Below are positions 8,412-23,285 of a DNA stretch of 32,000 bases, in pieces. A program made the position numbers and the translations under genes. Below the pieces are notes generated by a model. It was not told the origin of the DNA, made no database searches, and worked only from the letters and a program-made list of their open reading frames with translations. This DNA is from Nitrososphaera viennensis EN76. Lineage in GTDB: Archaea; Thermoproteota; Nitrososphaeria; Nitrososphaerales; Nitrososphaeraceae. The stretch spans positions 540,001 to 572,000 of the forward strand of contig NZ_CP007536.1 of the NCBI RefSeq assembly GCF_000698785.1, written 5' to 3'. How positions within the stretch are numbered: position 1 is the first letter of the stretch; every line of letters starts with the position of its first letter.

Positions 8412-8445
8412 ATTGTTAGAATCAGAAAAAATACACACAGTGACA

Positions 8446-8455
8446 GGATATAAAG
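8446..8455 (-). promoter_or_regulatory. TATA-like box upstream of thiC
   Basis: The minus strand reads CTTTATATCC, ~35-45 nt upstream of ATG 8411. Confidence 0.35.
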
Positions 8456-8564
8456 AATGTTCTACTTTTGGGAAGGCCGAGTTTGTCTAAACAAAATTTA
8501 GCTTGCTGCTCTAAACTAGCTTGCTACGTGGATTAACAGAAATCCCTGAAAATACGGCACATAC

Positions 8565-8714: not shown

Positions 8715-9134
8715 GATAAAATATGCCGAACAAGTTTTGATGCCAGTTGCCTCTAGCGGAACGGTCGGCCGGCGACAGTTTTTCTATGCTCTGGTCAGAA
8801 ATTTACGCATCGGGGCAATACAGGACATTTATTCGGCGGCAAAGACGCCCACGCCTGGCCGCCGTCAAGGCTTCCGGCGATTGCCCCCAATGCAAGCGTC
8901 ACGCACACCGAAATTGCCATTGTTGTCATCCGTGGATGTTCTGTCACAAGGCTTGCGGTTTTTCGTGCAATCCGCGGGAACATGCGTATGGCTTAGGCAA
9001 TCGTCCGCTATTTAAGTAGGCAAGTAGTTTTGCACAAGTAGATCATTAGATTCAAAACAGGCGCCGCTTTTGGACAGCTTGGGTAGAGTAGTAGTGCGCT
9101 TAATAGCGCGTAGGAGCATATTGATAATCAGGGA

Positions 9135-9305
9135 ATGGCTACGGACCTAAAGAGCATCCCTCCAGAAAAGAAAGAAGTGGTGAGAAATCTGTATGTTTCA
9201 GGGATTCCTGAGGAATTTATTGCGATGCAACTTGATTTAGAAATCCCGCTTGTCATCGCCATCCTCAAGGAACTCGGGATCTACAGGCACGCAAACGAAC
9301 CATGA
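9135..9305 (+). CDS. candidate 56-aa small helical (HTH-like) protein
   Basis: Hand translation gives MATDLKSIPPEKKEVVRNLYVSGIPEEFIAMQLDLEIPLVIAILKELGIYRHANEP. CATATTGATAAT lies just upstream. The perfect 14-bp palindrome TTCCCGGCCGGGAA (9308-9321) follows the stop. Confidence 0.35.
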   Translation: MATDLKSIPPEKKEVVRNLYVSGIPEEFIAMQLDLEIPLVIAILKELGIYRHANEP

Positions 9306-9485
9306 CCTTCCCGGCCGGGAAAAACTGGATATCGTTTATTTCGACGATCCCCCGGTCGTGTCACTCTTCTGCCCAATCCAGCGTTTCGTTGCTAATTGCA
9401 AATTTTCCGCCATTTCAGTAGCAAGAATCCGGACTGGCCGATAGATAGACTGAATAAGTCTTCCCTGTTATTTTGGCATGAATTG

Positions 9486-10826
9486 ATGAAGGTAGCGCTT
9501 TCCATCGCAGGGAGCGACTCTGGCGCAGGCGCCGGCATACAGGCCGACCTAAAGACGTTCTCGGCACTTGGCGTCTATGGCTGCACGGCGATAACCGCGC
9601 TGACCGCGCAGAACACAAAAAAAGTAGCAGAGATACACGAAGTCCCGGCAGGAATCGTCGAGGCGCAGGTAACGTCAATCATGACAGACCTGCCGCCTGC
9701 CGCAATCAAGGTAGGCATGGTCTACAGCCGGGAGATAATAGGTGCCATTACAAAATCGCTAAAGCACGCAAGGGCGCCCATCGTGCTTGACCCGATACTT
9801 GCCGCAGGGACAGGCGCAAAACTGCTGAGAGACGACGCGCTCGACCTGTTTGTTTCAAGGTTAATCCCTCTTGCGACCCTTGTCACGCCAAACAGGATGG
9901 AGGCCGAAAAGCTGTCCGGCGTAAGGATAAGGAGCGAAGGCGACGGCGTCGAGGCTGCAAAAAAGCTGAGGGCGCTTGGAGCAAAAAACGTCATTGTCAA
10001 GGGCGGCCATTTCGGGAAAAAGACGGTGACGGACATACTATTGCTTGACAACAGCAGCAAGGTGACAGAGATAACAAACCCGCGCGTCGTCGACATCAAG
10101 GAGAGCCACGGCTCGGGCTGCAACTTTTCCGCTGCAGCCACCGCATACCTTGCGCGTGGCTTGGCGCTTGAAGAAGCGTGCAGGCTGGCAAACGAGTACG
10201 TGCACGACGCCATCAAAAACGCGGTCACGGTGGGAAAGGGCCTGCCGGTCACAAACCCGCTTTCTGCAATCTACAAAGACGCGATGCGGCATAGGGTGCT
10301 TGCAGAGCTGCAGGCGGCAGTCGACAGGCTTGTTTCGCTTGAGGGTTTTTACCGCCTGGTACCAGAAACGCAGACGAATTTCGCGTACGCGCTTCCCGAC
10401 GCTTCCAGCCATTCCGAGGTCGCGGCAGTCCGCGGGAGGATAGCGAGGGCAGGCAACGCCGCTGTGCAGGTGTCAAGGGTAGAGTTTGGCGCCTCCAGGC
10501 ACATGGCGTCTGCCGTCCTGGCGTACATGAGCATCAGGCCGTCGACAAGGGCAGTGGCCAACATCAGGCTTGACCCGGCGATCCTTGCCGCATTCAGGTC
10601 GCTGTTCGAGGTGTCAAGCTACGACAGGAGCAAGGAGCCGCAAGACGTCAAGAGAAAAGAAGGCTCCACCATATCGTGGGGCACAAAAGCCGCGCTTTCC
10701 AAAAACCCTGAGGCGGAGGTGATATACCACGAAGGCGATGTCGGCAAGGAGCCCATGATAACCGTCTTTGGCAGGAACCCCGCAGAAGTGGTATACAAGA
10801 TCGAGCAGGTATTGAAGATTTGCTGA
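9486..10826 (+). CDS. thiDN: bifunctional ThiD-ThiN (HMP/HMP-P kinase fused to archaeal-type thiamine-phosphate synthase)
   Basis: Track ORF 9396..10826, trimmed to ATG 9486 (MKVALSIAGSDSGAGAGIQADLKTF). ThiD motifs are VTPNRMEAEKL, VKGGH and HGSGCNFSAA. The extra ~190-aa C-terminal domain (VPETQTNFAYAL...AVRGRI...) is typical of ThiN fusions known in archaea. Confidence 0.85.
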   Translation: MKVALSIAGSDSGAGAGIQADLKTFSALGVYGCTAITALTAQNTKKVAEIHEVPAGIVEAQVTSIMTDLPPAAIKVGMVYSREIIGAITKSLKHARAPIVLDPILAAGTGAKLLRDDALDLFVSRLIPLATLVTPNRMEAEKLSGVRIRSEGDGVEAAKKLRALGAKNVIVKGGHFGKKTVTDILLLDNSSKVTEITNPRVVDIKESHGSGCNFSAAATAYLARGLALEEACRLANEYVHDAIKNAVTVGKGLPVTNPLSAIYKDAMRHRVLAELQAAVDRLVSLEGFYRLVPETQTNFAYALPDASSHSEVAAVRGRIARAGNAAVQVSRVEFGASRHMASAVLAYMSIRPSTRAVANIRLDPAILAAFRSLFEVSSYDRSKEPQDVKRKEGSTISWGTKAALSKNPEAEVIYHEGDVGKEPMITVFGRNPAEVVYKIEQVLKIC

Positions 10827-10890
10827 GGGTTCTTCTATAGGAAATGCGGTCTTACCTTATATAGTAGGAAATGCGACAGAAACGCCGGCG

Positions 10891-11598
10891 ATGAAAGCAG
10901 TCATACTCGCAGGCGGCCTCGGGACGAGGCTCCAGCCGTATACCTTCTTTATACCCAAGCCGATGCTCCCGCTCGGCAACAAGCCGCTCCTCGAATACAC
11001 GATAGAGTGGCTGAGAAACGCCGGCGGCATCAAAGAGATCGTGATTTGCGTCAGCTACCTCCACAGGACAATCGAGGACTATTTCGAGGACGGGAGCAGG
11101 TTCAACGTCAAGATAGACTACGCCCGCGCAGAGCGACCGCTTGCGACCGCGGGGCAGTTAAAGACCGCGGAAAAGATGCTTGCCGACGACACCTTTGTCT
11201 GCGTCTATGGCGACTCGGTCTACGAGTTTAACCTGCGCAAGATGCTGAAGATGCACAGCGAGAGCAAGGCGTTCGTTTCGATGGCGCTGATGCACTACTC
11301 TACGAAACTGAAATACGGCTTTATCGATGTTGACGGAAGCGACATAACCGGCTGGCGCGAAAAGCCCGAGATAAGCGGGCTCATCAACATCGGCTGCTAC
11401 GTCATGGAACCCGGATTCCTAAAGGCGATACCCAAGGCTGGCGCGTTTGGCATGGACGACGCCGTGAGAAACGCCCTTGCGCAGAAAAAGAAGGTCAAGG
11501 CGTTCGAGGTGGACGGCACCGGGTTCATAGACATCGGCGACAAGAAATCGTACCTTGACGCCTACAAGCAGTTTGCAAGCAGGCTGGGCAAGATATAA
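10891..11598 (+). CDS. sugar-1-phosphate nucleotidylyltransferase (NTP_transferase family)
   Basis: 235 aa. The N-terminal signature is MKAVILAGGLGTRLQPYTFFIPKPMLPL, with YGDSVY and INIGCYV further in. Sugar specificity is not determinable by eye. Confidence 0.85.
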   Translation: MKAVILAGGLGTRLQPYTFFIPKPMLPLGNKPLLEYTIEWLRNAGGIKEIVICVSYLHRTIEDYFEDGSRFNVKIDYARAERPLATAGQLKTAEKMLADDTFVCVYGDSVYEFNLRKMLKMHSESKAFVSMALMHYSTKLKYGFIDVDGSDITGWREKPEISGLINIGCYVMEPGFLKAIPKAGAFGMDDAVRNALAQKKKVKAFEVDGTGFIDIGDKKSYLDAYKQFASRLGKI

Positions 11599-11601
11599 GA
11601 T

Positions 11602-12858
11602 ATGCCGTCGATTGCGCTCTTTGAGGACCACCACTGGCGCAACTTTGCCCCGCTTACGCTGACGAGGGCGACCTTTGACCTCAAGGTGGGCGCAAGGACG
11701 TTCTTTGAAGAGTGCTCGTACGCCGGCAACGCGCCAGACGCGCTGCTCGTGCGCAGGCACCTTGAAAAGGTGACAGCAGAGCGGCATGACGGCTGCAAGA
11801 TAAATCCGGGCGCGCTTGATTCAGACGCCATATTTGTGAACGGGCTCTTGCACCCGGCGACCCTTGACCTGCCGCGCCTTTCAAACGTGAACCACACTTT
11901 TGCGATAACATCTGGAAACCGGCTGCTGGTGGCCCGCCTTTCAAAAAAGTCTGCAGAATACCTGCAAAAATGCGTCGAGGCCGGCAAGCCTGCCAGCATC
12001 AAGGCGCTTGCAGTGGAAAAATCCACGGACATGCAGGGCGCTGAAGGGCTGCTGTCAGAGCCGTGGGACCTGATAAGGGTGCTTGAAAACGCGCTTGCCA
12101 TGCAAACAATAGCAGCAGAGCAGCAGCAGTCAAGCGAAATAATGCAGGGCGCAAAGGTACTTGGAGAAAACGCGGTGGTGGCAGAAGGCGCAGCAATAGA
12201 GGACGGCACGGTGCTTGACGCAAGGAACGGCGGCATCTACATCGGCCCGGGCGCGTACATTTCCCAGAGCAGGATAGTAGGCCCGGCTTACATCGGCTCC
12301 CAGACGCAGGTAAAGCAGTTCTCTATAATAGAGAAAAGCTATGTCGGAAGGAACTGCCGCGTCGCCGGCGAGATAGAGCATTCCATAGTTTCCGATTACA
12401 CGAACAAGGCCCATGACGGGTTTTTGGGCCACTCGTACGTCGGCGAGTGGGTCAACCTCGGTGCCATGACCACCACGTCCGACCTGAAGATGACGTACGG
12501 CAACATACGGATTGAAGGTCATGATACGGGCCTTGACAAGCTGGGCTCTTTCTTTGCAGACATGAGCAAGACTTCCATAGGCACGCTCGTCTACAGCGGC
12601 CGCAGGATCGGGGTCTCGTCGCACCTCCACGGCCTCGTCGCAGGCGACGTCCCGTCGTTTACGATATACGGGAAGGGCATCGGCGCAAAAAACGTCGAGC
12701 TAGAGCTTGCGTCTGCGATAGAGACCCAGAGAAAGGTGATGCCAAGGCGCGGCCAGCAGATGAGCAAGGCGTACGAGCAGATGGTAAAGGACGTGTTCCT
12801 TTCGACCGCGCAGGAGAGGAAGAAGGCAGGCGTGCGCAGGGCCAAGTTTGTTGTTTAA
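11602..12858 (+). CDS. GlmU-like protein: degenerate nucleotidyltransferase-like N-domain plus left-handed beta-helix (hexapeptide-repeat) C-domain
   Basis: 418 aa, starting 3 nt after the previous stop. Imperfect hexapeptide repeats span about residues 170-340 (VLGENAVVAEGAAIEDGTVLDARNGGIYIGPGAYISQSRIVGPAYIGSQTQV...). Confidence 0.7.
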   Translation: MPSIALFEDHHWRNFAPLTLTRATFDLKVGARTFFEECSYAGNAPDALLVRRHLEKVTAERHDGCKINPGALDSDAIFVNGLLHPATLDLPRLSNVNHTFAITSGNRLLVARLSKKSAEYLQKCVEAGKPASIKALAVEKSTDMQGAEGLLSEPWDLIRVLENALAMQTIAAEQQQSSEIMQGAKVLGENAVVAEGAAIEDGTVLDARNGGIYIGPGAYISQSRIVGPAYIGSQTQVKQFSIIEKSYVGRNCRVAGEIEHSIVSDYTNKAHDGFLGHSYVGEWVNLGAMTTTSDLKMTYGNIRIEGHDTGLDKLGSFFADMSKTSIGTLVYSGRRIGVSSHLHGLVAGDVPSFTIYGKGIGAKNVELELASAIETQRKVMPRRGQQMSKAYEQMVKDVFLSTAQERKKAGVRRAKFVV

Positions 12859-12891
12859 TTATGTGAGAAAATCGCTCCCTTCGAGCGTCCA

Positions 12892-12911
12892 ATGCAACAA
12901 AAACGTTGCAT
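12892..12911. repeat. perfect 7-6-7 palindrome ATGCAAC-aaaaac-GTTGCAT (candidate recombinase core site)
   Basis: Read directly from the sequence. A third near-copy, GTTGCAc, follows at 12917-12923. The site is ~190 bp upstream of the integrase start. Confidence 0.5.
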
Positions 12912-13104
12912 AATCCGTTGCACAGGCGCGAAAACTCAAGCTAGCCCTGAAAATATGCAGACACTAAACTTCTGCTTGGGCATTCATCAAGTAACACTAA
13001 CAAATTTTCCGACTTTATTATCTGTTATTTGGTATATCTATCCCCCTACTACGTCACTGTCTGTCAGTTCTAGGTGCTACTATAAAGGAAGAGGTAGATG
13101 AATA

Positions 13105-14469
13105 GTGGCTCAAACGCTTGTACAAAGGAAGAGCCGCTTAAGGGTCAAGGGCTTGAAGGTAAAGGACAGAGAGAAGATCAAGGAAGCAATAGCGATCAGC
13201 ATCCAGAATGGCAATTACACAACGAGAGAAATCGGTGTTGACATAGGCAAGGATCACAGTACCATCTCACGTTATCTCTCAGAGATGGAAAGAGAGGACA
13301 AGTGGGGAATACGGCGGGATGCCAATGGTAGCATCATTATCTCGTTGCAAAAGCAGCTTGCACAGGAACACAGGCAATTAGAAAATGAACCGTTCAACCA
13401 GCTGCCTGCAATCCAGAAATGGATAACGTACCTGAAGTCAGGCGGAATCCTTCCAAGGAGGATCCAGTACCTTGTAAACGTGGTTCACGGAATGTCTGAC
13501 CAGCTGAAGGTGATGCCGGAGACTCTCGTAAGCTTTGGTGTACCCCTCGACACGATGAAGCGAAAAGAGATAGCGATAGAATACTGGCGGAACTTTCTTG
13601 CGTGGTTCAATGTCGCTTACCCACAGATGCAAAAGACAAACACCATCAACGCTTATCGAAGCTTTCTTGCAGCTCACAACATCAACTTTGCTCACGGGGA
13701 AGGCAGGCGCTATGGACTGTCAACCACGCCGGAAAGGCTTGGGGAGTACAAGGACATCATGCTCACGCCGGAACAGATAGACAGGATAAACAGACTGCTG
13801 GAGGGTGAAAGCGACTGGGAAGCTTGGAGTTTTATGAATATCGATCTCCATACCGGAGCTAGAGCCTTTGCCATGGCGTCTATGAGCTGGAATAGGGTGG
13901 CATTCTTACCGGTGTTCAGAGTTGAACAGTTTGAGCCAAAGATAAAGCGTGGAGACTGGTACCTGACAAAGGAGGGTAAGTGGTGGGTAAAGTACCCGAC
14001 AGAAGAGTGCAGGATTGTAGTCGAGACTGCACGTGATAGGTTACCAAAAGAAAGGAAATTCTTATTTTTTGACGATGCAAAAAGCGACAAGGCAAATGCG
14101 CTACAAGCTTCTTACTTTATGTCAAAAATGGCGATTAGGTTCAAGAAGATATTCTCGGGGCTGAACAAAAGCAGTTGGCTAAACGAAAAGACACGGATAT
14201 ACGCGCTAGGAGATGGGCTGTACTTTAATGGACATCCCTTGCATCTCATGAGACATACTATGGCTCAGTACTATCTGGCAGCGACAAATTGGTCACTTGC
14301 GTACGTCGCAAGCTTGGGAGGGTGGGAAAACACAGAAGTGTTGAACAAGTGCTACGGCGGAATTCCTGAACACATTAAAGCGCAGATAGCAAAGTCAATC
14401 CATGTAAGGTTTGATACTCTTGTCCTGAATACTTTTGGATCAGCTCTACATGGTTCGTTACTCACTTGA
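13105..14469 (+). CDS. int: tyrosine recombinase / integrase with N-terminal HTH
   Basis: 454 aa with a GTG start at 13105. CTATAAAGG lies at 13079-13087 and GAGGT lies 9 nt upstream. The N-terminal HTH is YTTREIGVDIGKDHSTISRYLSEME. Catalytic boxes are LHTGARAF (Arg), HLMRHT (HxxR), and LGGWENTEVLNKCYGG (Trp in the His/Trp position, plus the Tyr nucleophile). Confidence 0.85.
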   Translation: MAQTLVQRKSRLRVKGLKVKDREKIKEAIAISIQNGNYTTREIGVDIGKDHSTISRYLSEMEREDKWGIRRDANGSIIISLQKQLAQEHRQLENEPFNQLPAIQKWITYLKSGGILPRRIQYLVNVVHGMSDQLKVMPETLVSFGVPLDTMKRKEIAIEYWRNFLAWFNVAYPQMQKTNTINAYRSFLAAHNINFAHGEGRRYGLSTTPERLGEYKDIMLTPEQIDRINRLLEGESDWEAWSFMNIDLHTGARAFAMASMSWNRVAFLPVFRVEQFEPKIKRGDWYLTKEGKWWVKYPTEECRIVVETARDRLPKERKFLFFDDAKSDKANALQASYFMSKMAIRFKKIFSGLNKSSWLNEKTRIYALGDGLYFNGHPLHLMRHTMAQYYLAATNWSLAYVASLGGWENTEVLNKCYGGIPEHIKAQIAKSIHVRFDTLVLNTFGSALHGSLLT

Positions 14470-15093
14470 AAAGTCTTCCAATCCTGATTTGGGTAATTGT
14501 TTTGTTGTCCTTTTGTAATACCCCTCTTTCAAGTCAATGAGGTAATTGTAGGAAACTAGGACATCGAGAATAGCCTTGATCGGCTGTTTGTTTCCGACTA
14601 TATCTCTGCCCAGATCATACATCTCTGCTTTTGCAAATGCCCTACTGCCAAACTTTTCGTCAATCCTCGTTACTGCCTTTGCAAGCAGCGAATCCTTCTC
14701 GTAAAAAGAGCCGAGGTTGATAATGTAGATTTTCTCGCCTTCTACTGATACGTATGCCTTTATCCTTTCCGGGCCTGCTAGGCTCTTGTGGTACGTGTAT
14801 TTACCTCTCTTTCCGTTGATCACCTTGTCAGCATAGGCAGTGAGAAACGGGTTGACATCAAATTCCGGGTCAATAGAGTATTCTAAAGGCGGTCTATCTT
14901 TGACGACTGCCTGCGGGTTGGGATTCAGTAGCGCTTGCACATCTTTGAGCATGTTTGGAAAGATGGATACGTGCTCACCGTAACCCGTCCTTTTGATTTT
15001 CAAAAAGCCCCACTTTCTAAGGTCATCATATGCTTTGGTTGATTCTCCTTTTTCTGACGTGGCAGTGCCTTTCATCGAGTCTTCCTTGGACAT
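14458..15093 (-). CDS. hypothetical protein (211 aa), island-borne
   Basis: ATG at 15093..15091. Composition is island-like. The C-terminus (IKAILDVLVSYNYLIDLKEGYYKRT) is possibly wHTH-like. The 3' end overlaps the integrase 3' end by 12 nt (convergent). Confidence 0.55.
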   Translation of the reverse strand: MSKEDSMKGTATSEKGESTKAYDDLRKWGFLKIKRTGYGEHVSIFPNMLKDVQALLNPNPQAVVKDRPPLEYSIDPEFDVNPFLTAYADKVINGKRGKYTYHKSLAGPERIKAYVSVEGEKIYIINLGSFYEKDSLLAKAVTRIDEKFGSRAFAKAEMYDLGRDIVGNKQPIKAILDVLVSYNYLIDLKEGYYKRTTKQLPKSGLEDFSSE

Positions 15094-15245
15094 GTGTCGC
15101 TCCCCGATACAGTTAGAATAGTATAATTTCCTGAGTATGGCAAGATGATAACTGTTAAACGTACAAGCTTCCCCTCTGCTTGCCTATCACGCAAAGCATG
15201 GCGTGATAATACGCCATAAATGATATAAAGATTACTAAAAACGAT

Positions 15246-15668
15246 ATGTATAATACATACTCTGTGGCACAATATACTATGAACGTTAGCGAGGAATTTG
15301 GAAGCCCAAAAGGAGTTCTGGAATGGCTTGTTTCTGGAAATGCATCGGCTAGACTTCTGGATTTCTTTGTGACAAACAAAGAGTTTGACTACTCTGAAAC
15401 AGATGCCGCAGAATCATCTGGAGTATCTTTACGAACTGTATCCCGGGAATTACCAAAGTTTGAATCCGCCGGTATCATAAAGTTCACAAGAAACGTAGGA
15501 AGAGCAAAGATGTACAGATTTGACCAGAACTCAGAAATCGCCAAGTATCTAGAACAATTTGTATTTGCAGCTGCAACTAGGCGAATTGAAGCATCCATGA
15601 TGCAATCAGAGGCGCAAACCTCCTCTGTTGGGAAGAAAATAGAAACGGCTCGGTTGGCAAATAGCTAA
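15246..15668 (+). CDS. winged-helix (ArsR/TrmB-like) transcriptional regulator
   Basis: 140 aa. ETDAAESSGVSLRTVSRELPKFESAGIIKFTRNVGRAKMYRF forms an HTH plus wing. ATG 15279 (MNVSEEF) is an alternative start, better spaced from GATATAAAG at ~15222-15230. The gene is divergent from 14458..15093. Confidence 0.65.
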   Translation: MYNTYSVAQYTMNVSEEFGSPKGVLEWLVSGNASARLLDFFVTNKEFDYSETDAAESSGVSLRTVSRELPKFESAGIIKFTRNVGRAKMYRFDQNSEIAKYLEQFVFAAATRRIEASMMQSEAQTSSVGKKIETARLANS

Positions 15669-15698
15669 TTGAGTTACAAGGGGAATCGCTGAAACAAT

Positions 15699-16019
15699 TC
15701 ACAGAGGGTGCGATTCAATCTTGATCGGAACCCTCGAAACAATTTCTTCAAAGATCGAATTCAAAGATTTTTTCTTCATCGATATAGATTGTTCAGCGTT
15801 GGTTGGAGGCATTCTAATCAAACATAGTGTTTGGTTCAGATGATATCTGGCTTTTTTACCCGGTCCCGGATACTCATATTTTTCCATATTTACGGGTGGA
15901 GAAATATCTTGATATTCCTTAAGAAGTTGGTTCCAAGAGAGGTCTGCTAGACTCCTTGCCATCTTCCTTATATCATGCTCGGATTTCTCAGGATTTTGAC
16001 GAAAGAGAGCTCGGATCAT
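15699..16019 (-). CDS. hypothetical 106-aa protein, third gene of the McrBC-like operon
   Basis: The track gives 15699..16055 with a TTG start. I prefer ATG 16019..16017, which overlaps the McrC-like TGA (16018..16016) as ATGA. Product: MIRALFRQNPEKSEHDIRKMARSLADLSWNQLLKEYQDIS... No recognisable motif. Confidence 0.5.
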   Translation of the reverse strand: MIRALFRQNPEKSEHDIRKMARSLADLSWNQLLKEYQDISPPVNMEKYEYPGPGKKARYHLNQTLCLIRMPPTNAEQSISMKKKSLNSIFEEIVSRVPIKIESHPL

Positions 16020-17329
16020 AGTTTCAATTCTCTCACTCCTATTAAGATCATCCAATTCTTTGGATGATTGGGATATATCAGAGCACCAAAGTTTGCATCC
16101 AGATTCGTCATGTAGGCAAGCATCTTATCTCTAGTCTCTGAAATGGAACTCGATTTTGAATAGTTCTTCGCATCGAAGATAGCTATGATCTCATTATCAA
16201 TCATAGCAGTAAAATCTGGCTTGTGTCTTTGAATCCAAGCATTAGGGCCTCCAGCAGCAAATTCTTTTTCATACCAAAAGATTACAATATGGCCATTAAA
16301 TTCGAATTTACAATGAGGGTCATTTCCTAACTGAAAATCAACTAAAAGTCCCTTTTCAAACAAGAACTCTACAAACTCCATGAATATCCAAATTTCGTAA
16401 ATAGTATCCAAATTCTCAATAGGTTCGATGATGTGCCTTGAAGGGGTCTTCTCAGATATGCTTGACATGTTCAGCTGTCTAAATTCTTCTATCCAATTCA
16501 ACAACAATGAATAAGTCGGGTTACGTACGAGGTTTTGATTTATCCGCCGTCTTGTCTCGTCTTCCAAGTTTTTTATTCTGGTATCATTATGCGATAAATC
16601 CCAATACTTCCTTGATGCATTTAGCACAGAGGGGAGTGGGAAACGCTGAAGGATGTCTCTGGTTTTTTGAACCACTCCTTTCAATAATTGTATTTTGTAG
16701 TCGGTCAACGGTTCAAGAAACTGCGTATGAAGCAACCTGATTGATTCCCTACGCATCCATTCTGCACACAGCACCAGAAGAATATTTTCGGGTGTATCAA
16801 ACTCCCTTTTCCGGACTGATGCAGAAAATGCCAATGGAAATTCCATCGGTGACTTGGTTAGTGTTTTTGTCCAATCTATTTTACCTCTAATGCCCGGCCC
16901 ATAGTATTCTATCCGCGGATAATCAAAGTGTATTTCGTCAACAATCTTCTTATAGATTGCAAAGTATTGCATGTAGAGGATTTCTAACTTGTTTAGATCT
17001 GCGAGGGGATTTGGGATTCTAAAAACTCCAACATCGTTTTTAATTTCAAAATAGGCTTCATAAGACCTCCTGTGTTTCAGAATAAGGGAGAGTAATCTGT
17101 CATACATGTACTGCTTAGTTTCAGGTGGTTCAAGAACAACCCGAACCAACTGGTGCCATTTCCATCCATTCTCACGATACTTGCTAAGCTTGAAGGCATC
17201 CTTTAGCTCCTTGTTTTGAGGGAGATTGATAAAAACATCATCGACGCCAGCCAGAAGTGACATTGAGATATTTCCTCCATTTGGATCATTGAGCCATTTT
17301 ATTTTCTCTATAAGCTCATTTTCTTCCAT
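16016..17329 (-). CDS. mcrC: McrC-like subunit: DUF2357-type N-region plus PD-(D/E)xK nuclease
   Basis: 437 aa. Family hallmarks are GKIDWTKT, FDTPENILLVL and IYEIWIFMEFVEFL. The catalytic block is HKPDFTAMIDNEIIAIFDAKNY (PD...DxK, nt 16166-16219). Its ATG abuts the upstream TAA. Confidence 0.8.
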   Translation of the reverse strand: MEENELIEKIKWLNDPNGGNISMSLLAGVDDVFINLPQNKELKDAFKLSKYRENGWKWHQLVRVVLEPPETKQYMYDRLLSLILKHRRSYEAYFEIKNDVGVFRIPNPLADLNKLEILYMQYFAIYKKIVDEIHFDYPRIEYYGPGIRGKIDWTKTLTKSPMEFPLAFSASVRKREFDTPENILLVLCAEWMRRESIRLLHTQFLEPLTDYKIQLLKGVVQKTRDILQRFPLPSVLNASRKYWDLSHNDTRIKNLEDETRRRINQNLVRNPTYSLLLNWIEEFRQLNMSSISEKTPSRHIIEPIENLDTIYEIWIFMEFVEFLFEKGLLVDFQLGNDPHCKFEFNGHIVIFWYEKEFAAGGPNAWIQRHKPDFTAMIDNEIIAIFDAKNYSKSSSISETRDKMLAYMTNLDANFGALIYPNHPKNWMILIGVRELKL

Positions 17330-20092
17330 TTAGACCACAGCGGATCTTCTTAGGTCAGTAATTCCTTGTTTAAATTGGACTAACCCTAATTCGAAGTTTT
17401 TCTTTTTATCTTCAAAGGCAGTTTGGATCTGACTCCAAATGTTGTCATTTTCAATTTTCATGACTCCGGCCGAAAATTCTTCTGCCCGCGTTTTGTAATT
17501 GCTTATCTGTAAATACTCCAATACTTTTTCAAATGGTTCTCCATAGCTTTGACGATTTGGACTCTTGTAAGCATCCTTGAAGTATTGCACGATATTTTCA
17601 TTGTACAGAGCCTCAATCGTGCCTAGCGATGCTGAAGAAAGGTTTTCAAGCTGGGGTATTAGTGTTGAAGTCAATGCATTGTCTAATGATAATTTTGCAT
17701 CCTTTGTAATCCTAAGTGCTACCAGCATGTTCTGATAGATTAGCTGCAAAACGGCTGTTCCAAGTTTCTTAAAAACACGAACCAAATCCAGAAAATAGTA
17801 TGCTTGGAGTATACGATTGTAGAATTCTGCATTTGATCTTCCGGGGAGTACCTTCTTGCCGATATCATCGAGCAGAATAAAGTCTTCATAATCTTTTAAC
17901 CGCAACTCGGAAATTGCATTTTTCATGGCATAGTAGACCTCTTTTTCATAGTCTTCTTTCCTTGGTATATCTATCTCGATGTAAGCAAATCTGCTTTTTA
18001 GTGCATCTGATAATTGGAATAGGAAATGCTTGTCTGCAGTATTTAGCGTTCCAATTATTCTGTAGTCTTGTGGAATTCGTAGTTCTTTATAGGATGTATC
18101 TGTCTCGTTTGTTGGTATCTTGAGCAATCTTGTCCTAAGCGCCGTGAATAGCTGGCCGAATGCTTTATCGATATCTGCCCTGTTGAACTCATCGATTACA
18201 AGCCATGTTCCTCTATACTGCGGCCTTCTTGCCAGATGTACGCTAGGTATACGTAGACCACCATCTGTTCCGCGTTCCCAATTTCTTGCAACAGTCTCCG
18301 CTACACATCCATACTGAATGTCATATGCTACCCTCCCGTTTTCCATCTTTGGATATATTCCACCTATTACGTCCTGTGTATTCCAATCTGCAGTGGCAGT
18401 ATAGTATTCTGCATAGTATCCGCCAATCTTTTCCCAAAATAATTCAGGAATCAATTGGGCTAATCGAGTCTTTCCTGTTCCAATTGGGCCTGCAAGCAGC
18501 ACGTGTCTGCCACTTGCAAGGGCTGTCACTATTTCAATGACCTTTTCTTTGGGGACCAGGAGCGAGCTGCGAATTTTTTCGTAACCGTTTTCTATCTCCT
18601 CATACGTTGGAATGGATAGAGGGCTATCATCAAAAGTTTCAAGATGTGGAGTATCTTTTTCCTCTGAGGAGGATTCTGATTTTAGACAGTGGTATAAGAA
18701 CCTCCAAAAGGTTGTGTTGTCCCATCGCTGATTAAATTGACTATTAATTTCATCCTTGGCCTCAAGTAGTAACTCAGTATGTAATTCGTACTTTTCTCCG
18801 TTTGACAAGACACCATAATCCTTTCCATATTTGTCTTTAGCTTTTTCAATGTATTTCTTGCCAAGCTTAGTCGAGAATAGCTCCATGTCCTGCATACTGA
18901 ATACGGCCAGAGATCTGTCTGAATTGTAAAGGTAAATGATTTTCTTTGGAATTGCTTTTTCGCCACCGAAACCACTAATTTTCTCCCAAGGCGCATTGAC
19001 TTTTTCTAAAAGCGATTTGTTTCTATCTACAGCTATTTTGAGCAGATCCTTGAATAATTTCAGATTTTCTTCAGTGATTCCCCATACGCTAGCCTCGGCT
19101 CCGGTCTTTCCCACATTTTCAGCTATTTCACTCCAATAATAGTAAAAAGTGTCTTTGCTACCACGTTCATAAATATCACTTACTTGTAGCTCATCAATGA
19201 GATCAGGGTGTTGATGATAGGGATAGCGACTTAGGAATTTGTTAAGTGCCTCACGTGCTTTCTCGATCTTTTCATCATCATTACGAATACTCTGAAGGCA
19301 TGGTAGGATCTCTTTTGTAACCAACGAATCAGAATCCAATGATGGCGTTTCCTTTAACATCCAATAACCCGAACCTATTTCTTTTGGCTGAAATAGATCT
19401 CTTCCAGAGCCACGAGAATTAGCTTGCAAATAGTATCTGATTATGTTTTCATAATCCTTAGGTAGGATTTCGTTCTTGCTTCTTCTTATCTCTGCAAATA
19501 CCTTGTAGATATCGCTTAGGTGATAATACTTAGCTGCTCCTCCTAGTTTCATGTAGGTGTCGATAAGATCACTGATCCAAGTAGATTCTTCAGTATCAAC
19601 TAATCCCTGATTTGTTTCGTTCGTCTTTTCTTTTAAGTCACTAATTTGGTCCCATTTGTTTAGAAAATTTACCAAGGAATGTTCCTTCCCGGGAGCACGA
19701 TTTACTACTAGAGTATTATGTGAACCATTGCGTTCAATGATACTAAAATCCCATTGCAATTTACCTTGCTTGAAATTAGGCTCCACCTGACTGAAAAATG
19801 CCTCCAATGCGCTGCCGGGTATGACGAATGTGTGCTCAGGATTCTTTTCTAGCATTATAGCGTAATAGTGTCTAGGGCTTGAAACTAGCTTATTGTAATC
19901 ATCCCGCGATAAGTCATACCATCCTCTATTGTTTGGATGAATGATGGAATCATTGACATATACTACTGACTCGGATTGTAGATGCGGATCGGGTATTATC
20001 CTAAGCCATGATTTTCTTTCTGGACCGATTATTTTGATATTCTTGTATTTATTCTGGAGGTAATCTCTAAGAATTTCCGCGGCTGAGGGCAT
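17330..20092 (-). CDS. mcrB: McrB-family AAA+ GTPase with ~530-aa N-terminal and ~200-aa C-terminal uncharacterised regions
   Basis: 920 aa. Walker A is LLAGPIGTGKT (aa 531-542, nt 18467-18490 for GPIGTGKT). The Walker B/McrB signature is WLVIDEFNRADIDKAFGQLF (nt 18146-18202). IIGTLNTADK carries the NxxD motif (nt 18032-18043). A probable wHTH lies at aa ~175-247 (IIRYYLQANSRGSGRDLFQPKEIGSGYWMLK). Confidence 0.85.
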   Translation of the reverse strand: MPSAAEILRDYLQNKYKNIKIIGPERKSWLRIIPDPHLQSESVVYVNDSIIHPNNRGWYDLSRDDYNKLVSSPRHYYAIMLEKNPEHTFVIPGSALEAFFSQVEPNFKQGKLQWDFSIIERNGSHNTLVVNRAPGKEHSLVNFLNKWDQISDLKEKTNETNQGLVDTEESTWISDLIDTYMKLGGAAKYYHLSDIYKVFAEIRRSKNEILPKDYENIIRYYLQANSRGSGRDLFQPKEIGSGYWMLKETPSLDSDSLVTKEILPCLQSIRNDDEKIEKAREALNKFLSRYPYHQHPDLIDELQVSDIYERGSKDTFYYYWSEIAENVGKTGAEASVWGITEENLKLFKDLLKIAVDRNKSLLEKVNAPWEKISGFGGEKAIPKKIIYLYNSDRSLAVFSMQDMELFSTKLGKKYIEKAKDKYGKDYGVLSNGEKYELHTELLLEAKDEINSQFNQRWDNTTFWRFLYHCLKSESSSEEKDTPHLETFDDSPLSIPTYEEIENGYEKIRSSLLVPKEKVIEIVTALASGRHVLLAGPIGTGKTRLAQLIPELFWEKIGGYYAEYYTATADWNTQDVIGGIYPKMENGRVAYDIQYGCVAETVARNWERGTDGGLRIPSVHLARRPQYRGTWLVIDEFNRADIDKAFGQLFTALRTRLLKIPTNETDTSYKELRIPQDYRIIGTLNTADKHFLFQLSDALKSRFAYIEIDIPRKEDYEKEVYYAMKNAISELRLKDYEDFILLDDIGKKVLPGRSNAEFYNRILQAYYFLDLVRVFKKLGTAVLQLIYQNMLVALRITKDAKLSLDNALTSTLIPQLENLSSASLGTIEALYNENIVQYFKDAYKSPNRQSYGEPFEKVLEYLQISNYKTRAEEFSAGVMKIENDNIWSQIQTAFEDKKKNFELGLVQFKQGITDLRRSAVV

Positions 20093-20126
20093 TATAGCAG
20101 TGCTGAAAGGAGAAGGTATGTTATTA

Positions 20127-20140
20127 GCATTATGATATAT
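20127..20140 (-). promoter_or_regulatory. TATA-like box upstream of the McrBC-like operon
   Basis: The minus strand reads ATATATCATAATGC, 35-48 nt upstream of ATG 20092. It is flanked upstream by two TCAGTGT repeats. Confidence 0.3.
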
Positions 20141-20272
20141 CTCAGTGTCTTTTCAGTGTTTCCAGATGTAATGCTCACGAATAGCTTGGCTGAAAGAGCT
20201 TTCCACGATTCCATTCCTGAATTGAATTTAGTCAGCGAAGGAGGATGCTGTAGGGTTTGAGCCTGTGTACTG

Positions 20273-20322
20273 TTTGTTGCATATACTATTACTCCCGGTC
20301 TAACTGCAAATTGCTATGCAAC
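20273..20322. repeat. inverted heptamer pair GTTGCAT (20276-20282) / ATGCAAC (20316-20322) at the right island edge
   Basis: Read directly. TTTGTTGCAT (20273-20282) is the exact reverse complement of ATGCAACAAA (12892-12901) at the left edge. Confidence 0.45.
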
Positions 20323-20434
20323 GGAACCGAAAGATAATTAATTAGTTAGTTAGTTTGCGCCCGGAGTTTTGAACACCGCAAGCCCTGTCCAAGCCGCCAG
20401 AAAAATAACAGAAATAGAAACAAAAATTGATGAT

Positions 20435-20460
20435 GCCCTGCCCGTCTGTTAGAGCAGGGC
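20435..20460 (-). terminator. hairpin plus T-rich tract downstream of the SIMPL-domain gene
   Basis: GCCCTGC-12 nt-GCAGGGC is a 7-bp stem lying 9 nt past the stop (20469-20471). On the minus strand it is followed by AATTTTTGTTTCTATTTCTGTTATTTTT. Confidence 0.4.
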
Positions 20461-20468
20461 AAATGCTG

Positions 20469-21686
20469 CTACGTGTCGCCACCTTTGCCCAGTTCAAACT
20501 CGACTGTGACTGATTTCGATATCTCTCCGCTTATGTTCGGGTAATAGGGCTGGATTATGTGCACGCCCCTGTATGGGATCAAGCCGCCGTACGGATTTGG
20601 CGAGTCCGTGGCTGCCTCTATGCTCACGATTCCGTTTACCTGAAGCCCCAGCGACTGCGCCATCTCTTCTGCCCTGCTCTTTGCACTGTCAAACGCCTGC
20701 TTGCCAAGTTCCTTCCTGGCCTGGTCTATGGCGGCATCGGATGCTGACAGGTAGACGTTTTCGACGTTTGCGCCGCCCATCTTCTTGACTGCGGCGGTTA
20801 CCTTCTCTATGTCGGCGGCGTCCGTCCTGACGATTATCTGCGTGTACATGCTGTAGCCGGCATTCTGGTTTGAGCCGTAGAAGAACGGGTAGATGTTGAG
20901 GTTGTTCTGCCGTACCTGGTCTTCCGAGATTCCGGTTTCCCTCAGCACGGCCAGGAGGCTCCTGTACTTTTGCTCATACTCTGCTATCGACTTTGTCAGC
21001 ACATCCGGCTTTGTGTTCAGCGAGACGCCGACGGTTATCGGGTTGCGCTCCAAAGTCCGGGTCTGGTTTTCTGCGCCGTCACCGACCTCGACTGAAGTGC
21101 TGCCCGCCGCTGCGCTCTCGGCTTTTCTGAGTATTGCGGCCGAGTAGCTTGGGTCTATGTACACGCTTTCAAACCCAAAGCCGGCATCTGCGAGCTTGCT
21201 GACCAGCCCGGGCAGGCGGTCGATGTTTGTCTGGACGGCGACTGAAGCGTATACGTTAAACGTCACGTTGTTGGAGGCCGGCACGCCCGTGTTTGAGTAG
21301 TAAGGGTTCAGGGATTGCTGGCCGAAGGCTATTGTCGTCCTGTCGCCTGCAGCTTCCCTCACGGCCTGCGCTATTTGCTGCGTCCTTGCTTGGTGCTTGC
21401 TCAAGACGGAAGATAGTTCGCCGGGTTCTGTCTGCGCGTTTATTATTATGGTGGCCTGGTCCGGCGTGATTGTTGTTGATGCCTCCCCCGTCACCTTGAT
21501 GGTCGCAGGTTTTCCGCCAGACGGCAGCGCTGCGTAATCTTGGCTGTATGCTTTCTGGAAATCGTTTTTGAGCAACAGCGGGGTGCCTGCAACAAAAAAT
21601 GACGTGCTGGCTACCGCCGCCGACAAGACAACAGCTAACACGATAGCTATTGTCGGAAGCTTTTTTCTGGAAAAGTTATTCATCAA
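20469..21686 (-). CDS. SIMPL (DUF541) domain protein with N-terminal signal anchor
   Basis: 405 aa. The N-terminal TM is LPTIAIVLAVVLSAAVASTSFFVAG. IKVTGEASTTITPDQATIIINAQT and the C-terminal DQARKELGKQAFDSAKSRAEEMAQSLGLQVNGIVSIE match the SIMPL pattern. It is longer than usual, through either an insertion or a tandem domain. Confidence 0.6.
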   Translation of the reverse strand: MMNNFSRKKLPTIAIVLAVVLSAAVASTSFFVAGTPLLLKNDFQKAYSQDYAALPSGGKPATIKVTGEASTTITPDQATIIINAQTEPGELSSVLSKHQARTQQIAQAVREAAGDRTTIAFGQQSLNPYYSNTGVPASNNVTFNVYASVAVQTNIDRLPGLVSKLADAGFGFESVYIDPSYSAAILRKAESAAAGSTSVEVGDGAENQTRTLERNPITVGVSLNTKPDVLTKSIAEYEQKYRSLLAVLRETGISEDQVRQNNLNIYPFFYGSNQNAGYSMYTQIIVRTDAADIEKVTAAVKKMGGANVENVYLSASDAAIDQARKELGKQAFDSAKSRAEEMAQSLGLQVNGIVSIEAATDSPNPYGGLIPYRGVHIIQPYYPNISGEISKSVTVEFELGKGGDT

Positions 21687-21824
21687 AAGCCGGTTTTGCG
21701 CCGCGTTTATTTAAGAAATTATCCAAACGAAATAGACTTTGAAAAATCTGTTGTTTAACGGGGCAATAACCTGCTGACAAGATGATTATTGGCCGGTGCA
21801 CGGACAACATATACTCTGCTACTG

Positions 21825-23285
21825 CTACATGTAGCTGATGCTCTGCTTTTCCTTCCACAGCCCCAGGCGCTGGTGGAGCCACGGGTAAAAGTTGGCGTCG
21901 CCGTTTTCAAACTCTTTTTTGATTATCCGGATTATCTTCTTTGACACCTGCCCCGGCCGGCCGTAGATCTGCTTTTTATTTCGCAGCTGCATGCCAAGGC
22001 CCTCTCCCCTTTCGTGCGCCTCTCTTGCCATCATAGATATCCATGCGCGGTTGAGCGGCGGGACAAGGATGTTGCTCTTGGCGTCAAACACCGTCTCTGG
22101 CCTGTCAGTGTTCAGCCGGACAGTGAGCGACGTCACCTTTGGGAAATAGAGCAGCTCTTCCTGCATCGAGCCCGAGTCCGTCATCTCGGCCCAGCAGCGG
22201 CCGCTGTCAAGAAATTCTATCACGTGCGCGTACTCTTTCCACAGAGGCGTCATCAGGAATTTATCTTTGTGATCCTCTGCAAGGTCCTGCAGTTTCTTTT
22301 CAAGGCCGTACTGCTTTAGCGCAGAAACCGTCGCGTTGAGCATCACAAGGACGACCTTGCTGTCCGTGCGCTCAATGATGTCTACAAGACCGCCGATTAT
22401 GGACGTGAAACGGCGCTCTGTCAGGTTCTCCCGCCTGTGTATATCCATCCTTATCCACTCGCCCTTTTCAAGCTGCGGGTACGCGTCAAAGATGCTCTGG
22501 CTTGGGCGCTCCTTGCGCTTTTGGTGTATCGCGTCGACGACAGAGTTTCCCACCACGTGCACAAACTCTTCAGGGTACCCCTCCCTGACCAGGTGGTCCT
22601 TGTTGAGCTGCGTCGGCGCAAAAAAGAACTGCGTGCCGGCAGAGCATATCCAGGTGTCTATCTGCTCTGGAAACGGCTCTTCCCTTGCAAGGAACCACCT
22701 TCTGCCCTCAAACTGGCTGTGCACAAGGTCGCGTATTGTCTTTTTCGTCGGCTCTTTTGCCGGCGACAGGTGCTTCATCATCTCCGGCCCCATGGAGCGC
22801 AGGCCTGCCTCGTTCTGGCCCACCTTCTGGCCCATCCCAAACACCCACGCAAGCGGGGCGATGCCTGCCACGAGCGTGTCGCCGTGCACTATGGGAAGCA
22901 TCGACTCGTTATGGTGAAAGTTCTTGCGGCAGTACCGGCCAAAGTAGCCGAATTTCAGTATCAGTTCGCTTGCCTTTTCCATCAGGTCGCCCCGGATCTG
23001 CAAGTTGCAGCCTACAAAGTCGTTCAGGCTGAACTCGTGCATCCCAAAGCCGAGCACGTCGTCAAAGTGCTGTCCCGTGTTTATCACAAAGGAAGGCACG
23101 TTTTCCCTTGCGGCCTCCACCATCAATGGGGCCTGCTTGTAAAAGTCCGGCTTTGTTCCCGTCACGACGGCAAGTATCGGGCTTTTCTGCTTTTTCGCAT
23201 GCTCAAACACCGAGGACAGGCCCCCGGAAACCTTTATCGGGAGCAGGTCCCGCGACACGTCAAGCTCGACGCCTTTGTCTTTCAA
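21825..23285 (-). CDS. UDP-N-acetylglucosamine 2-epimerase-like protein (Epimerase_2 family); TTG start
   Basis: 486 aa. Motifs are ILAVVTGTKPDFYKQAPL, INTGQHFD, VHGDTLVAG and QNEAGLRS. The TTG start (23285..23283) overlaps the upstream TGA as TTGA. It is longer than typical family members. Confidence 0.7.
   Translation of the reverse strand: MKDKGVELDVSRDLLPIKVSGGLSSVFEHAKKQKSPILAVVTGTKPDFYKQAPLMVEAARENVPSFVINTGQHFDDVLGFGMHEFSLNDFVGCNLQIRGDLMEKASELILKFGYFGRYCRKNFHHNESMLPIVHGDTLVAGIAPLAWVFGMGQKVGQNEAGLRSMGPEMMKHLSPAKEPTKKTIRDLVHSQFEGRRWFLAREEPFPEQIDTWICSAGTQFFFAPTQLNKDHLVREGYPEEFVHVVGNSVVDAIHQKRKERPSQSIFDAYPQLEKGEWIRMDIHRRENLTERRFTSIIGGLVDIIERTDSKVVLVMLNATVSALKQYGLEKKLQDLAEDHKDKFLMTPLWKEYAHVIEFLDSGRCWAEMTDSGSMQEELLYFPKVTSLTVRLNTDRPETVFDAKSNILVPPLNRAWISMMAREAHERGEGLGMQLRNKKQIYGRPGQVSKKIIRIIKKEFENGDANFYPWLHQRLGLWKEKQSISYM

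What the first reader, a model, noticed from the sequence alone, without database searches (positions are those of the whole stretch)
12859..20355. A ~7.5-kb low-GC integrated element whose only recognisable cargo is a restriction-like module
Seen: GC content and codon usage drop abruptly between the stop of the LbH gene (12858) and ~20355, where TTAATTAGTTAGTTAG gives stops in all three frames before GC rises. Hand counts of sampled 60-nt lines give 35-45% inside and 55-68% outside. Gene content is a tyrosine integrase (R...HxxR...W...Y boxes), a 211-aa unknown, a wHTH regulator and the three-gene McrBC-like operon. I recognise no replication, capsid or conjugation genes. No tRNA is visible at either border. 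Inference: this is a minimal integrase-mobilised defence cassette in an archaeon, either a decayed larger element or a compact hitcher.
Basis: partly seen in the sequence, partly recalled or inferred. Interest (0 to 1): 0.65.

Follow-up and report, generated by a model that had tools for sequence, protein, structure and literature searches.

The report
Small integrase-borne McrBC island, already catalogued
The low-GC stretch is a real 7.5-kb mobile element in the soil archaeon Nitrososphaera viennensis that carries its own integrase and a McrBC-type restriction module; it was already published in 2019 as NitVie-E2, though the ends found here differ from the published ones.

Summary
GC is 0.41 across 12859-20355 and 0.55 in both flanks. 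GC3 and tetranucleotide usage shift at the same points, and there is no tRNA gene. The window is Nitrososphaera viennensis EN76, CP007536 540001-572000.

The element is already catalogued as the cryptic integrated element NitVie-E2 (Krupovic et al. 2019, PMC6563490). That paper gives 8910 bp and att TGTTGTTTAA, which is window 12849-21758.

The same six-ORF element lies in a different chromosomal context in a forest-soil Nitrososphaera scaffold (L120). The homology is 88.6% over 7.5 kb and stops exactly at window 12855 and 20341. Related integrase elements share conserved arms that end at the same points, at a 6-bp core TAATTA. Reconstructed target sites read TTAATTAA. The host-like SIMPL gene (20469-21686) lies outside the element.

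The cargo is a McrB-type AAA+ GTPase with a private, partly hypervariable 480-aa N-terminal region, plus a weakly supported PD-(D/E)xK McrC-like partner.

Verdict: real, correctly read, mostly known. Interest is modest.

The parts
12856..12861 (.). Left core (attL) TAATTA. Its first three bases are the TAA stop codon of the LbH (glucosamine-1-P N-acetyltransferase-like) gene.
   Evidence: Homology with L120 begins at 12855. Conservation across the family begins at TAATTAT.
12856..13104 (+). Conserved non-coding left arm upstream of int, about 250 bp. It holds ATGCAAC / GTTGCAT / GTTGCAC motifs at 12893-12922, which are probably integrase-binding sites, and presumably the int promoter.
   Evidence: Alignment A1 of 8 or more related elements. 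Motif enrichment.
13105..14469 (+). Integrase, 454 aa, intact. It has an N-terminal HTH and a divergent tyrosine-recombinase catalytic domain (R253, H380, R383, W407, Y417).
   Evidence: dN/dS against L120 is 0.06.
14458..15093 (-). 211-aa protein of unknown function with a C-terminal winged helix. It travels with the element.
   Evidence: 91% identical in L120. dN/dS 0.05. Five homologues only. AF2 and Foldseek match only winged-helix domains.
15246..15668 (+). wHTH regulator, 140 aa.
   Evidence: Sub-threshold HTH_Crp_2 match in Pfam and Csa3-like / PDC-M05A matches in PADLOC. 96% identical in L120, dN/dS 0.04.
15699..16019 (-). C-terminal 106-aa piece of the McrC-like protein. Its start overlaps the upstream stop in an ATGA.
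   Evidence: In L120 it is fused in frame to McrC, giving a 543-aa protein.
16052..16053 (-). Frameshift site: GG here against GGG in L120, a 1-nt deletion that truncates McrC.
   Evidence: The sequence is identical in independent assemblies.
16016..17329 (-). McrC-like PD-(D/E)xK nuclease subunit, truncated to 437 aa. The P371-D372 ... D386-A-K388 motif is retained.
   Evidence: Sub-threshold Pfam matches to McrBC and PDDEXK_7. Motif invariant against a homologue only 25% identical. Assigned to arCOG05102 McrC in PMC6563490.
17330..20092 (-). McrB-like AAA+ GTPase, 920 aa. The motor module is roughly aa 480-920 (GPIGTGKT, IDEFNRAD, NTADK). The N-terminal 480 aa match no known family.
18600..19335 (-). 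Hypervariable stretch within the McrB N-terminal region. It is 58-78% identical in nucleotides to L120, while the neighbouring sequence is 89-96% identical.
20273..20340 (+). Conserved right arm containing GTTGCAT ... ATGCAAC.
   Evidence: Conserved in L110, L111, L112/L118, L115, L120 and L121.
20335..20340 (.). Right core (attR) TAATTA.
   Evidence: Homology with L120 and L121 ends at 20341. Family conservation stops after TAATTA(A).

Best explanation
Window 12856-20340 is a 7.5-kb site-specific integrative element of Nitrososphaera. It is the core of the published NitVie-E2.

Shown: a divergent tyrosine recombinase is encoded at one end, just inside a conserved arm of about 250 bp. A conserved arm of about 70 bp lies at the other end. 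Both arms carry GTTGCA-type repeats and both end in the palindromic core TAATTA.

Inferred: the excised circle would carry attP ATAATTAT. The integrase exchanges strands within TAATTA against a chromosomal TTAATTAA. Here that site overlaps the TAA stop codon of the LbH gene, so the stop codon is kept in both the occupied and the empty state.

The only recognisable cargo is a type IV (modification-dependent) McrBC-like restriction module. It consists of a McrB-type GTPase motor with a private N-terminal region, presumably for DNA recognition, and a PD-(D/E)xK McrC-like nuclease. By analogy with E. coli and T. gammatolerans McrBC, the motor would load on modified foreign DNA, hydrolyse GTP and deliver the nuclease.

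In this copy McrC is split by a 1-nt deletion, so the module may be weakened or inactive. The element has no transfer or replication genes, so it must rely on other routes to move between cells.
For: 1. The same element lies in a different context. L120 9800-17289 aligns with window 20341-12855 at 88.6% over 7513 bp, with unrelated flanking genes. The junctions are |TTAATTATGTGAG and GATAATTAA| in both.

2. The integrase has 78 homologues, all from Nitrososphaera-type archaea where a source names the organism. Their upstream arms align from TAATTAT onward. Their distal arms end at TAATTA. Reconstructed attB is TTAATTAA in four independent insertions.

3. GTTGCA/TGCAAC occurs five times within about 100 nt of the two ends, against 0.075 per 100 nt across the window.

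4. The catalytic residues R253, H380, R383, W407 and Y417 are invariant in 15 family members.

5. Purifying selection acts on int, the 211-aa gene and the wHTH gene: dN/dS 0.04-0.06.

6. McrB: PDB matches to T. gammatolerans McrB (3e-13) and E. coli McrB (2.4e-8), with the IDExNR and NTAD motifs aligned. NCBIfam matches McrB. There are 293 representatives at E<=1e-30 that share the C-terminal motor behind N-termini of very different length.

7. McrC: the PD...DAK motif is conserved and the gene lies next to McrB.

8. At least 18 related genomes lack the island.

9. The element is catalogued as NitVie-E2.
Against: No empty site from the same species and no excised circle was found, so the activity of this copy is unproven.

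The core is only 6 bp, so the att assignment rests on comparison between elements and not on repeat statistics.

The published att (TGTTGTTTAA, 21749) gives a different right end.

The integrase scores below Pfam's threshold and has no PDB sequence match.

McrC evidence is sub-threshold, and a three-sequence profile found nothing in the PDB. No PADLOC model matches the McrBC pair.

McrC is frameshifted here. In L120, McrB has an internal stop and the integrase reads in three pieces, which implies frameshifts. Neither known copy therefore has an intact set of genes.
Confidence: 0.85

Rival explanations
1. The published reading. NitVie-E2 is one 8.9-kb element (12849-21758) bounded by the 10-bp direct repeat TGTTGTTTAA, with the SIMPL/DUF541 gene as part of its cargo.
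For: The 10-bp repeat lies at the LbH stop codon and again at 21749. Related genomes lack both the island and SIMPL between LbH and the epimerase gene.
Against: Homology with L120 and L121 stops at 20341, 1.4 kb short of that site. The family-conserved right arm ends at 20340. SIMPL has host-like GC (0.55) and GC3 (0.69). A 10-mer repeat was expected about 0.7 times by chance in the space I searched (my estimate). Another Nitrososphaera genome (L012) has unrelated genes, CorA-like plus a 186-aa ORF, at the same junction, so this junction varies on its own.
Confidence: 0.08
2. Nested history. An older insertion brought in SIMPL, leaving the TGTTGTTTAA duplication. The 7.5-kb integrase element later entered a TTAATTAA created at or next to that junction.
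For: After removal of the element, the site reads TGTTGTTTAA|TTAATTAG..., so the TTAATTAA target spans the older junction. The two segments differ in composition.
Against: No mobility gene or recognisable end accompanies the SIMPL segment. The 10-bp repeat may be chance. No intermediate genome with SIMPL but without the element was found.
Confidence: 0.3
3. The island is an immobile relic. It was acquired once and is now fixed, and the integrase and cargo are decaying.
For: McrC is frameshifted here. In L120, McrB has an internal stop and the integrase is fragmented. No circle or empty site was found.
Against: The integrase here is full length, with invariant catalytic residues and dN/dS 0.06. 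The element occurs at two unrelated sites. A contig from run SRR30543911 (L004) has a 100% identical flank followed by an integrase region only about 80% identical, which suggests recent exchange at this very site.
Confidence: 0.2

Closest known systems
NitVie-E2, a cryptic integrated element of N. viennensis EN76 (Krupovic et al. 2019, PMC6563490, Table S2 and Appendix S1)
   Same: Same locus, same left end at the 3' end of the N-acetyltransferase-like gene, same genes. The integrase is listed as XerC/XerD-like and NVIE_RS03325 as McrC, arCOG05102.
   Different: The published right end is 21758, with att TGTTGTTTAA and SIMPL included. My comparison gives 20340 with core TAATTA. The paper lists the 920-aa protein as hypothetical, whereas here it is McrB-like. 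RefSeq shows only a 65-aa integrase fragment, whereas the ORF is an intact 454 aa.
McrBC type IV restriction systems (E. coli McrBC, PDB 6HZ4; Thermococcus gammatolerans McrBC, PDB 6UT3-6UT8)
   Same: An AAA+ GTPase with Walker A, the IDExNR Walker B region and the NTAD motif. A PD-(D/E)xK partner is encoded immediately downstream. The N-terminal DNA-reader region is variable.
   Different: The N-terminal 480 aa are unrelated to any Pfam domain and to the known McrB readers. The McrC-like protein is longer (543 aa when intact), matches Pfam McrBC only below threshold, and is frameshifted here. No biochemical data exist.
Archaeal integrases whose gene stays intact on integration (pNOB8-type, as opposed to SSV-type). 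This comparison rests on my own knowledge.
   Same: The att site lies outside the int gene, so int remains whole in the integrated state.
   Different: The core is a 6-bp A/T palindrome at a gene end or between genes, not a tRNA gene segment of 29-69 bp. The family is restricted to Nitrososphaera and has no PDB sequence match.
Integrase-borne defence islands in bacteria, such as P4-like satellites with variable defence cargo. This comparison rests on my own knowledge.
   Same: A small integrase-bounded unit whose cargo position varies between relatives.
   Different: There is no sign of a helper relationship. Most relatives of this integrase carry non-defence cargo: matrixin, BsuPI, PepSY, cupredoxin.

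Membership tests
Tyrosine recombinase / integrase | Catalytic residues R...(K)...HxxR...[H/W]...Y | tested here: met
   R253, H380, R383, W407 and Y417 are invariant in 15 family members. The beta-hairpin lysine was not assigned.
Tyrosine recombinase / integrase | Significant match to the family profile (Pfam PF00589) | tested here: inconclusive
   18.6 bits against a cut-off of 27.1. Thirteen of 15 members match at E<=0.01, with a best E-value of 1.4e-4. No PDB sequence match.
Site-specific integrative element | The same unit with the same ends at different chromosomal sites, flanked by a short direct repeat | tested here: met
   L120 against the window. TAATTA lies at both ends in the window, L120, L110 and L112.
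Site-specific integrative element | An empty site or excised circle in the same species | tested here: not met
   All contigs carrying the identical flanking proteins also carry the element or break off beside it. No attP or attB junction was found in the fetched loci, and no attP junction in viral contigs. The absence may only reflect limited sampling.
McrB (AAA+ GTPase of type IV restriction) | Walker A, the IDExNR Walker B region and the NTAD GTP-specificity motif, with homology to solved McrB structures | tested here: met
   GPIGTGKT, IDEFNRAD and NTADK are present. 6UT3 matches at 3e-13 and 6HZ4 at 2.4e-8. NCBIfam McrB matches at 6.3e-8, far below the equivalog cut-off.
McrB (AAA+ GTPase of type IV restriction) | GTP-dependent, modification-dependent DNA cleavage together with McrC | not testable with these tools
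   Requires biochemistry.
McrC | PD-(D/E)xK nuclease motif, with the gene adjacent to McrB | tested here: met
   P371-D372 ... D386-A-K388 is invariant against a homologue only 25% identical. The gene lies directly downstream of McrB.
McrC | Significant match to the McrC profile or to a solved structure | tested here: inconclusive
   PF10117 scores 21.3-21.8 bits against a cut-off of 23.9. No PDB match with the single sequence or the profile. The arCOG05102 assignment comes from the literature.
NitVie-E2 as published | Coordinates 552849-561758 and att TGTTGTTTAA | tested here: not met
   The left end agrees. The right end is not supported by the L120 homology or by the family arms.
Virus, plasmid or ICE | Capsid, terminase, replication-initiator or conjugation genes | tested here: not met
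   None was found with Pfam, PHROGs, NCBIfam or PADLOC. The 211-aa protein remains unassigned.

The most novel reading that the evidence does not exclude
A Nitrososphaera-specific family of minimal elements, each an integrase plus two conserved arms, that inserts at the 8-bp palindrome TTAATTAA. That sequence contains a stop codon in two of three frames on each strand and is rare in a 55% GC genome. It would therefore act as a built-in safe harbour at gene ends.

The family swaps cargo modules by recombination. Here the integrase module is 77-85% identical to L120, while the McrBC module is 94-99% identical.

In this member the cargo is a McrBC variant with a new, rapidly diverging reader region. 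Its McrC may have been disabled because the same genome carries a 5mC methyltransferase (DISARM DrmMII) next to a paralogous integrase.
Probability: 0.4. Interest if true: 0.5.

Novelty: already known. Interest (0 to 1): 0.3.

Why it matters
The finding adds little that is new in kind. Integrase-borne restriction cargo is common, and this element is in the 2019 catalogue of thaumarchaeal mobile elements.

Three points are useful.

1. The element's ends and att core are corrected, which changes what counts as its cargo: SIMPL is out.
2. The analysis defines a coherent integrase family of ammonia-oxidising soil archaea, with recognisable arms and a very short palindromic target. This gives a concrete substrate for a first in-vitro recombination test in this hard-to-manipulate group.
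3. A McrB-type motor with an uncharacterised, fast-evolving N-terminal region is flagged. It sits beside a co-resident 5mC methylase system in the same genome.

Tried and rejected
The real core is only 6 bp and emerged only from cross-element alignment.
- I first accepted the 10-bp TGTTGTTTAA repeat and the published 8.9-kb limits. I dropped them after the L120 and family-arm comparisons.
- I tested whether the variant contig L004 came from mis-assembly with a paralogue in the same genome. Its integrase piece is at most 87% identical to any of the 78 cluster representatives, including the two N. viennensis paralogues. It therefore is not one of those sequences.
- Paralogue P0038 could not be retrieved.
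- The attP junction search found nothing in fetched loci or in IMG/VR. The attB search in fetched loci also found nothing.
- The AlphaFold model of the McrB N-terminal 500 aa had pLDDT 42.8 and was not used.
- The 211-aa model (pLDDT 67.6) matched only generic winged helices at E>0.09.
- PADLOC gave no hit for the McrBC-like pair.
- PDB profile searches for the McrC and integrase families were empty.
Full report
**Observation.** The sliding-window profile shows GC falling from 0.53-0.57 to 0.37-0.46 between about 12750 and 20500. GC3 of the six island ORFs is 0.36-0.55. For twelve flanking genes it is 0.68-0.78. Tetranucleotide distance from the flanks is two to three times higher inside the island. 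ARAGORN finds no tRNA gene in the window. Pfam gives weak HTH_38 and Phage_integrase matches for the 454-aa ORF. It gives nothing for the 211-aa ORF and an HTH match for the 140-aa ORF. It gives sub-threshold McrBC and PDDEXK_7 matches for the 437-aa ORF, and AAA_5 for the 920-aa ORF.

**Source and prior knowledge.** The flanking LbH protein occurs on CP103305.1 and on mock-community assemblies. Relatives are all Nitrososphaera. Table S2 of Krupovic et al. 2019 (PMC6563490) lists NitVie-E2 in N. viennensis EN76 (CP007536) at 552849-561758. It is given as 8910 bp, class 'IE', att TGTTGTTTAA, target 'intragenic'. I had found the same 10-mer independently at window 12849 and 21749. The window is therefore CP007536 540001-572000. 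Appendix S1 of the paper lists the following genes:
- an integrase, present only as a 65-aa RefSeq fragment;
- a hypothetical 211-aa protein;
- an arCOG01210 HTH protein;
- a 106-aa hypothetical protein;
- McrC (arCOG05102);
- the 920-aa protein, listed as hypothetical;
- the gene at 560469-561683.

The element is therefore already known, and McrC was already annotated.

**Relatives without the island.** In 18 or more Nitrososphaera genomes the LbH gene is followed within 6-80 bp by the convergent UDP-GlcNAc 2-epimerase gene. Neither the low-GC block nor the SIMPL/DUF541 gene (window 20469-21686) is present there. One genome (L012) has a CorA-like gene and a 186-aa gene at that junction instead. 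This junction is therefore variable in its own right.

**Where the element really ends.**
- The integrase has 78 homologues at 68-88% identity. All that carry an organism name come from Nitrososphaera-type archaea, and two are paralogues in N. viennensis itself.
- A metagenome scan returned 11 loci. None shares the cargo, the 211-aa gene or the wHTH gene.
- Aligning the regions upstream of these integrases shows about 250 bp of conservation. It begins abruptly at TAATTAT, which is window 12856, the LbH stop codon.
- The window segment 20273-20348 is conserved, in the same orientation, 4-6.5 kb downstream of the integrase in L110, L111, L112/L118 and L115. That conservation stops right after TAATTA(A).
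- The decisive case is L120, a 118.8-kb forest-soil scaffold found through a 78%-identical McrB homologue. It carries the same six ORFs in the same order between unrelated genes: a CoA ligase and a 231-aa ORF on one side, an ABC transporter on the other. blastn aligns L120 9800-17289 with window 20341-12855 at 88.6% over 7513 bp, and nothing beyond aligns.
- The junctions read flank|TTAATTATGTGAG... and ...GATAATTAA|flank in both copies. The reconstructed target is TTAATTAA in the window, L120, L110 and L112, and the reconstructed attP is ATAATTAT.
- TTAATTAA occurs only once elsewhere in the 32-kb window.
- GTTGCA/TGCAAC motifs cluster at both ends: 5 of the 24 copies in the window lie within about 100 nt of the termini.

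The mobile unit is therefore 12856-20340, with a 6-bp core repeat. SIMPL lies outside it and has host-like GC3 of 0.69. The published 10-mer repeat may be chance; I estimate about 0.7 such matches were expected in the space I searched. It could also be the scar of an older, separate insertion. I cannot decide between these.

**Integrase.** The ORF is intact at 454 aa. Its N-terminus is conserved across the family from residue 2, which supports the GTG start at 13105. R253, H380, R383, W407 and Y417 are invariant in 15 members. Pfam PF00589 matches 13 of 15 members, but with best E-value only 1.4e-4; the window's own copy scores 18.6 bits against a cut-off of 27.1. The family profile has no PDB sequence match. 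It is a divergent tyrosine recombinase. Because the att site lies outside the gene, int stays whole on integration.

**Cargo.**
- The 920-aa protein matches T. gammatolerans McrB (6UT3, 3e-13) and E. coli McrB (2.4e-8), with the IDExNR and NTAD motifs aligned. It also matches the NCBIfam McrB model weakly.
- An exhaustive HMMER search found 293 representatives at E<=1e-30. They share residues about 480-920 behind N-termini of very different length, which is the usual McrB layout. Residues 1-480 are matched over most of their length only by the L120 copy, with partial matches in two other proteins.
- The McrC-like protein keeps a PD...DAK motif that is invariant against a relative only 25% identical. 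It reaches only sub-threshold Pfam scores and no PDB match.
- In L120 this protein is 543 aa long. The window has GG where L120 has GGG, at 16052-16053. An ATGA overlap at 16016-19 could allow the C-terminal piece to restart. The same sequence is present in several independent assemblies, so the deletion is not a sequencing error.
- L120 in turn has an internal stop in McrB and a fragmented integrase.

**Selection and mosaicism (window against L120).** dN/dS is 0.06 for int, 0.05 for the 211-aa gene, 0.04 for wHTH, 0.12 for McrC and 0.24 for McrB. Nucleotide identity is 77-85% across the integrase and most of the 211-aa gene. It is 94-99% from wHTH through McrC to the C-terminal half of McrB. 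It is only 58-78% in 18600-19335, within the McrB N-terminal region. This pattern points to module exchange and to a fast-evolving region, presumably the one that reads the target.

**The 211-aa protein.** It has five homologues and no family assignment. The AlphaFold model is of moderate quality (pLDDT 67.6), and only its C-terminal winged helix finds structural matches. Its function is unknown. A role as a DNA-binding accessory factor, for example in recombination directionality, is a guess.

**Mobility of this copy.** No empty site or circle was found. One contig from run SRR30543911 (L004) is 100% identical to the window for 3.7 kb of flank and the first 47 nt of the element. It then drops to about 80% through the integrase. 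It is not one of the known paralogues. Another contig from the same run matches the window exactly from the right flank, across the element's right end, into McrB. This suggests that variants of the integrase module occur at this same site, although a mixed-strain assembly cannot be excluded.

**Verdict.** The element is already published. What this analysis adds:
- corrected ends and att core;
- definition of the integrase family and its arms;
- assignment of the 920-aa protein to McrB;
- the McrC frameshift.

Noticed in passing
window 20341-21824: The SIMPL/DUF541 gene (20469-21686) and its spacers are absent from the LbH/epimerase junction in 18 or more other Nitrososphaera genomes. Even so it has host-like GC (0.55) and GC3 (0.69), and it lies outside the element's conserved ends. 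The published 10-bp repeat TGTTGTTTAA (21749-21758) sits 63 bp upstream of its start. Its origin is unresolved.
   Followed up: partly
L004 3658-4407 (run SRR30543911), equivalent to window 12859-13628: This contig is 100% identical to the window through 3.7 kb of flank and the first 47 nt of the element. Identity then falls to about 80% in the integrase region. It may be a variant integrase module at the same site in a near-identical strain, or a mixed-strain assembly.
   Followed up: partly
L003, L007 and L008 contig ends, equivalent to window 12885: Three Logan (k=31) contigs from different runs all stop exactly 27 nt past the LbH stop codon. That is what a repeat of 31 nt or more starting at the TAA would produce. 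It suggests that another copy of the element's left end exists in the same genome or sample, for example at integrase paralogue P0038, which I could not retrieve.
   Followed up: partly
L108 (CP103305.1 97372-118781), genes at 10001-21410: A paralogous integrase (P0049, 80% identical) in the same genome sits next to a class 2 DISARM system: DrmMII 5mC methyltransferase, DrmA, DrmB and a PLD-domain protein, plus a type II nicking-endonuclease-like (HhH-GPD) gene. No element with this position or gene content appears among the NitVie entries I saw in the 2019 catalogue, though I did not map the CP103305 coordinates onto CP007536. Its upstream region does not share the arms described here. A 5mC methylase co-resident with a McrBC-like module could explain why McrC is disabled.
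   Followed up: partly
window 13105-14469: Appendix S1 of the 2019 paper, following RefSeq, shows only a 65-aa integrase fragment (554275-554469). The ORF is in fact uninterrupted for 454 aa, with a family-conserved N-terminus.
   Followed up: yes
L122 2720-7909: A distant McrBC-like pair (McrB 47% identical, McrC 25% identical) is preceded by an overlapping 466-aa gene with a weak Ribosomal_L13e match. No integrase is nearby. It may be a three-gene variant of the system.
   Followed up: no
L012 4299-5872: A CorA-like transporter gene and a 186-aa gene lie between LbH and the epimerase gene in another Nitrososphaera genome. The tail-to-tail junction of these two genes is therefore a recurrent site for lineage-specific genes.
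   Followed up: partly
window 1500-2250, 2750-3250, 8250-9500 and 21500-22000: These are shorter dips in GC to 0.46-0.50, mostly around intergenic stretches. They are much weaker than the island.
   Followed up: no
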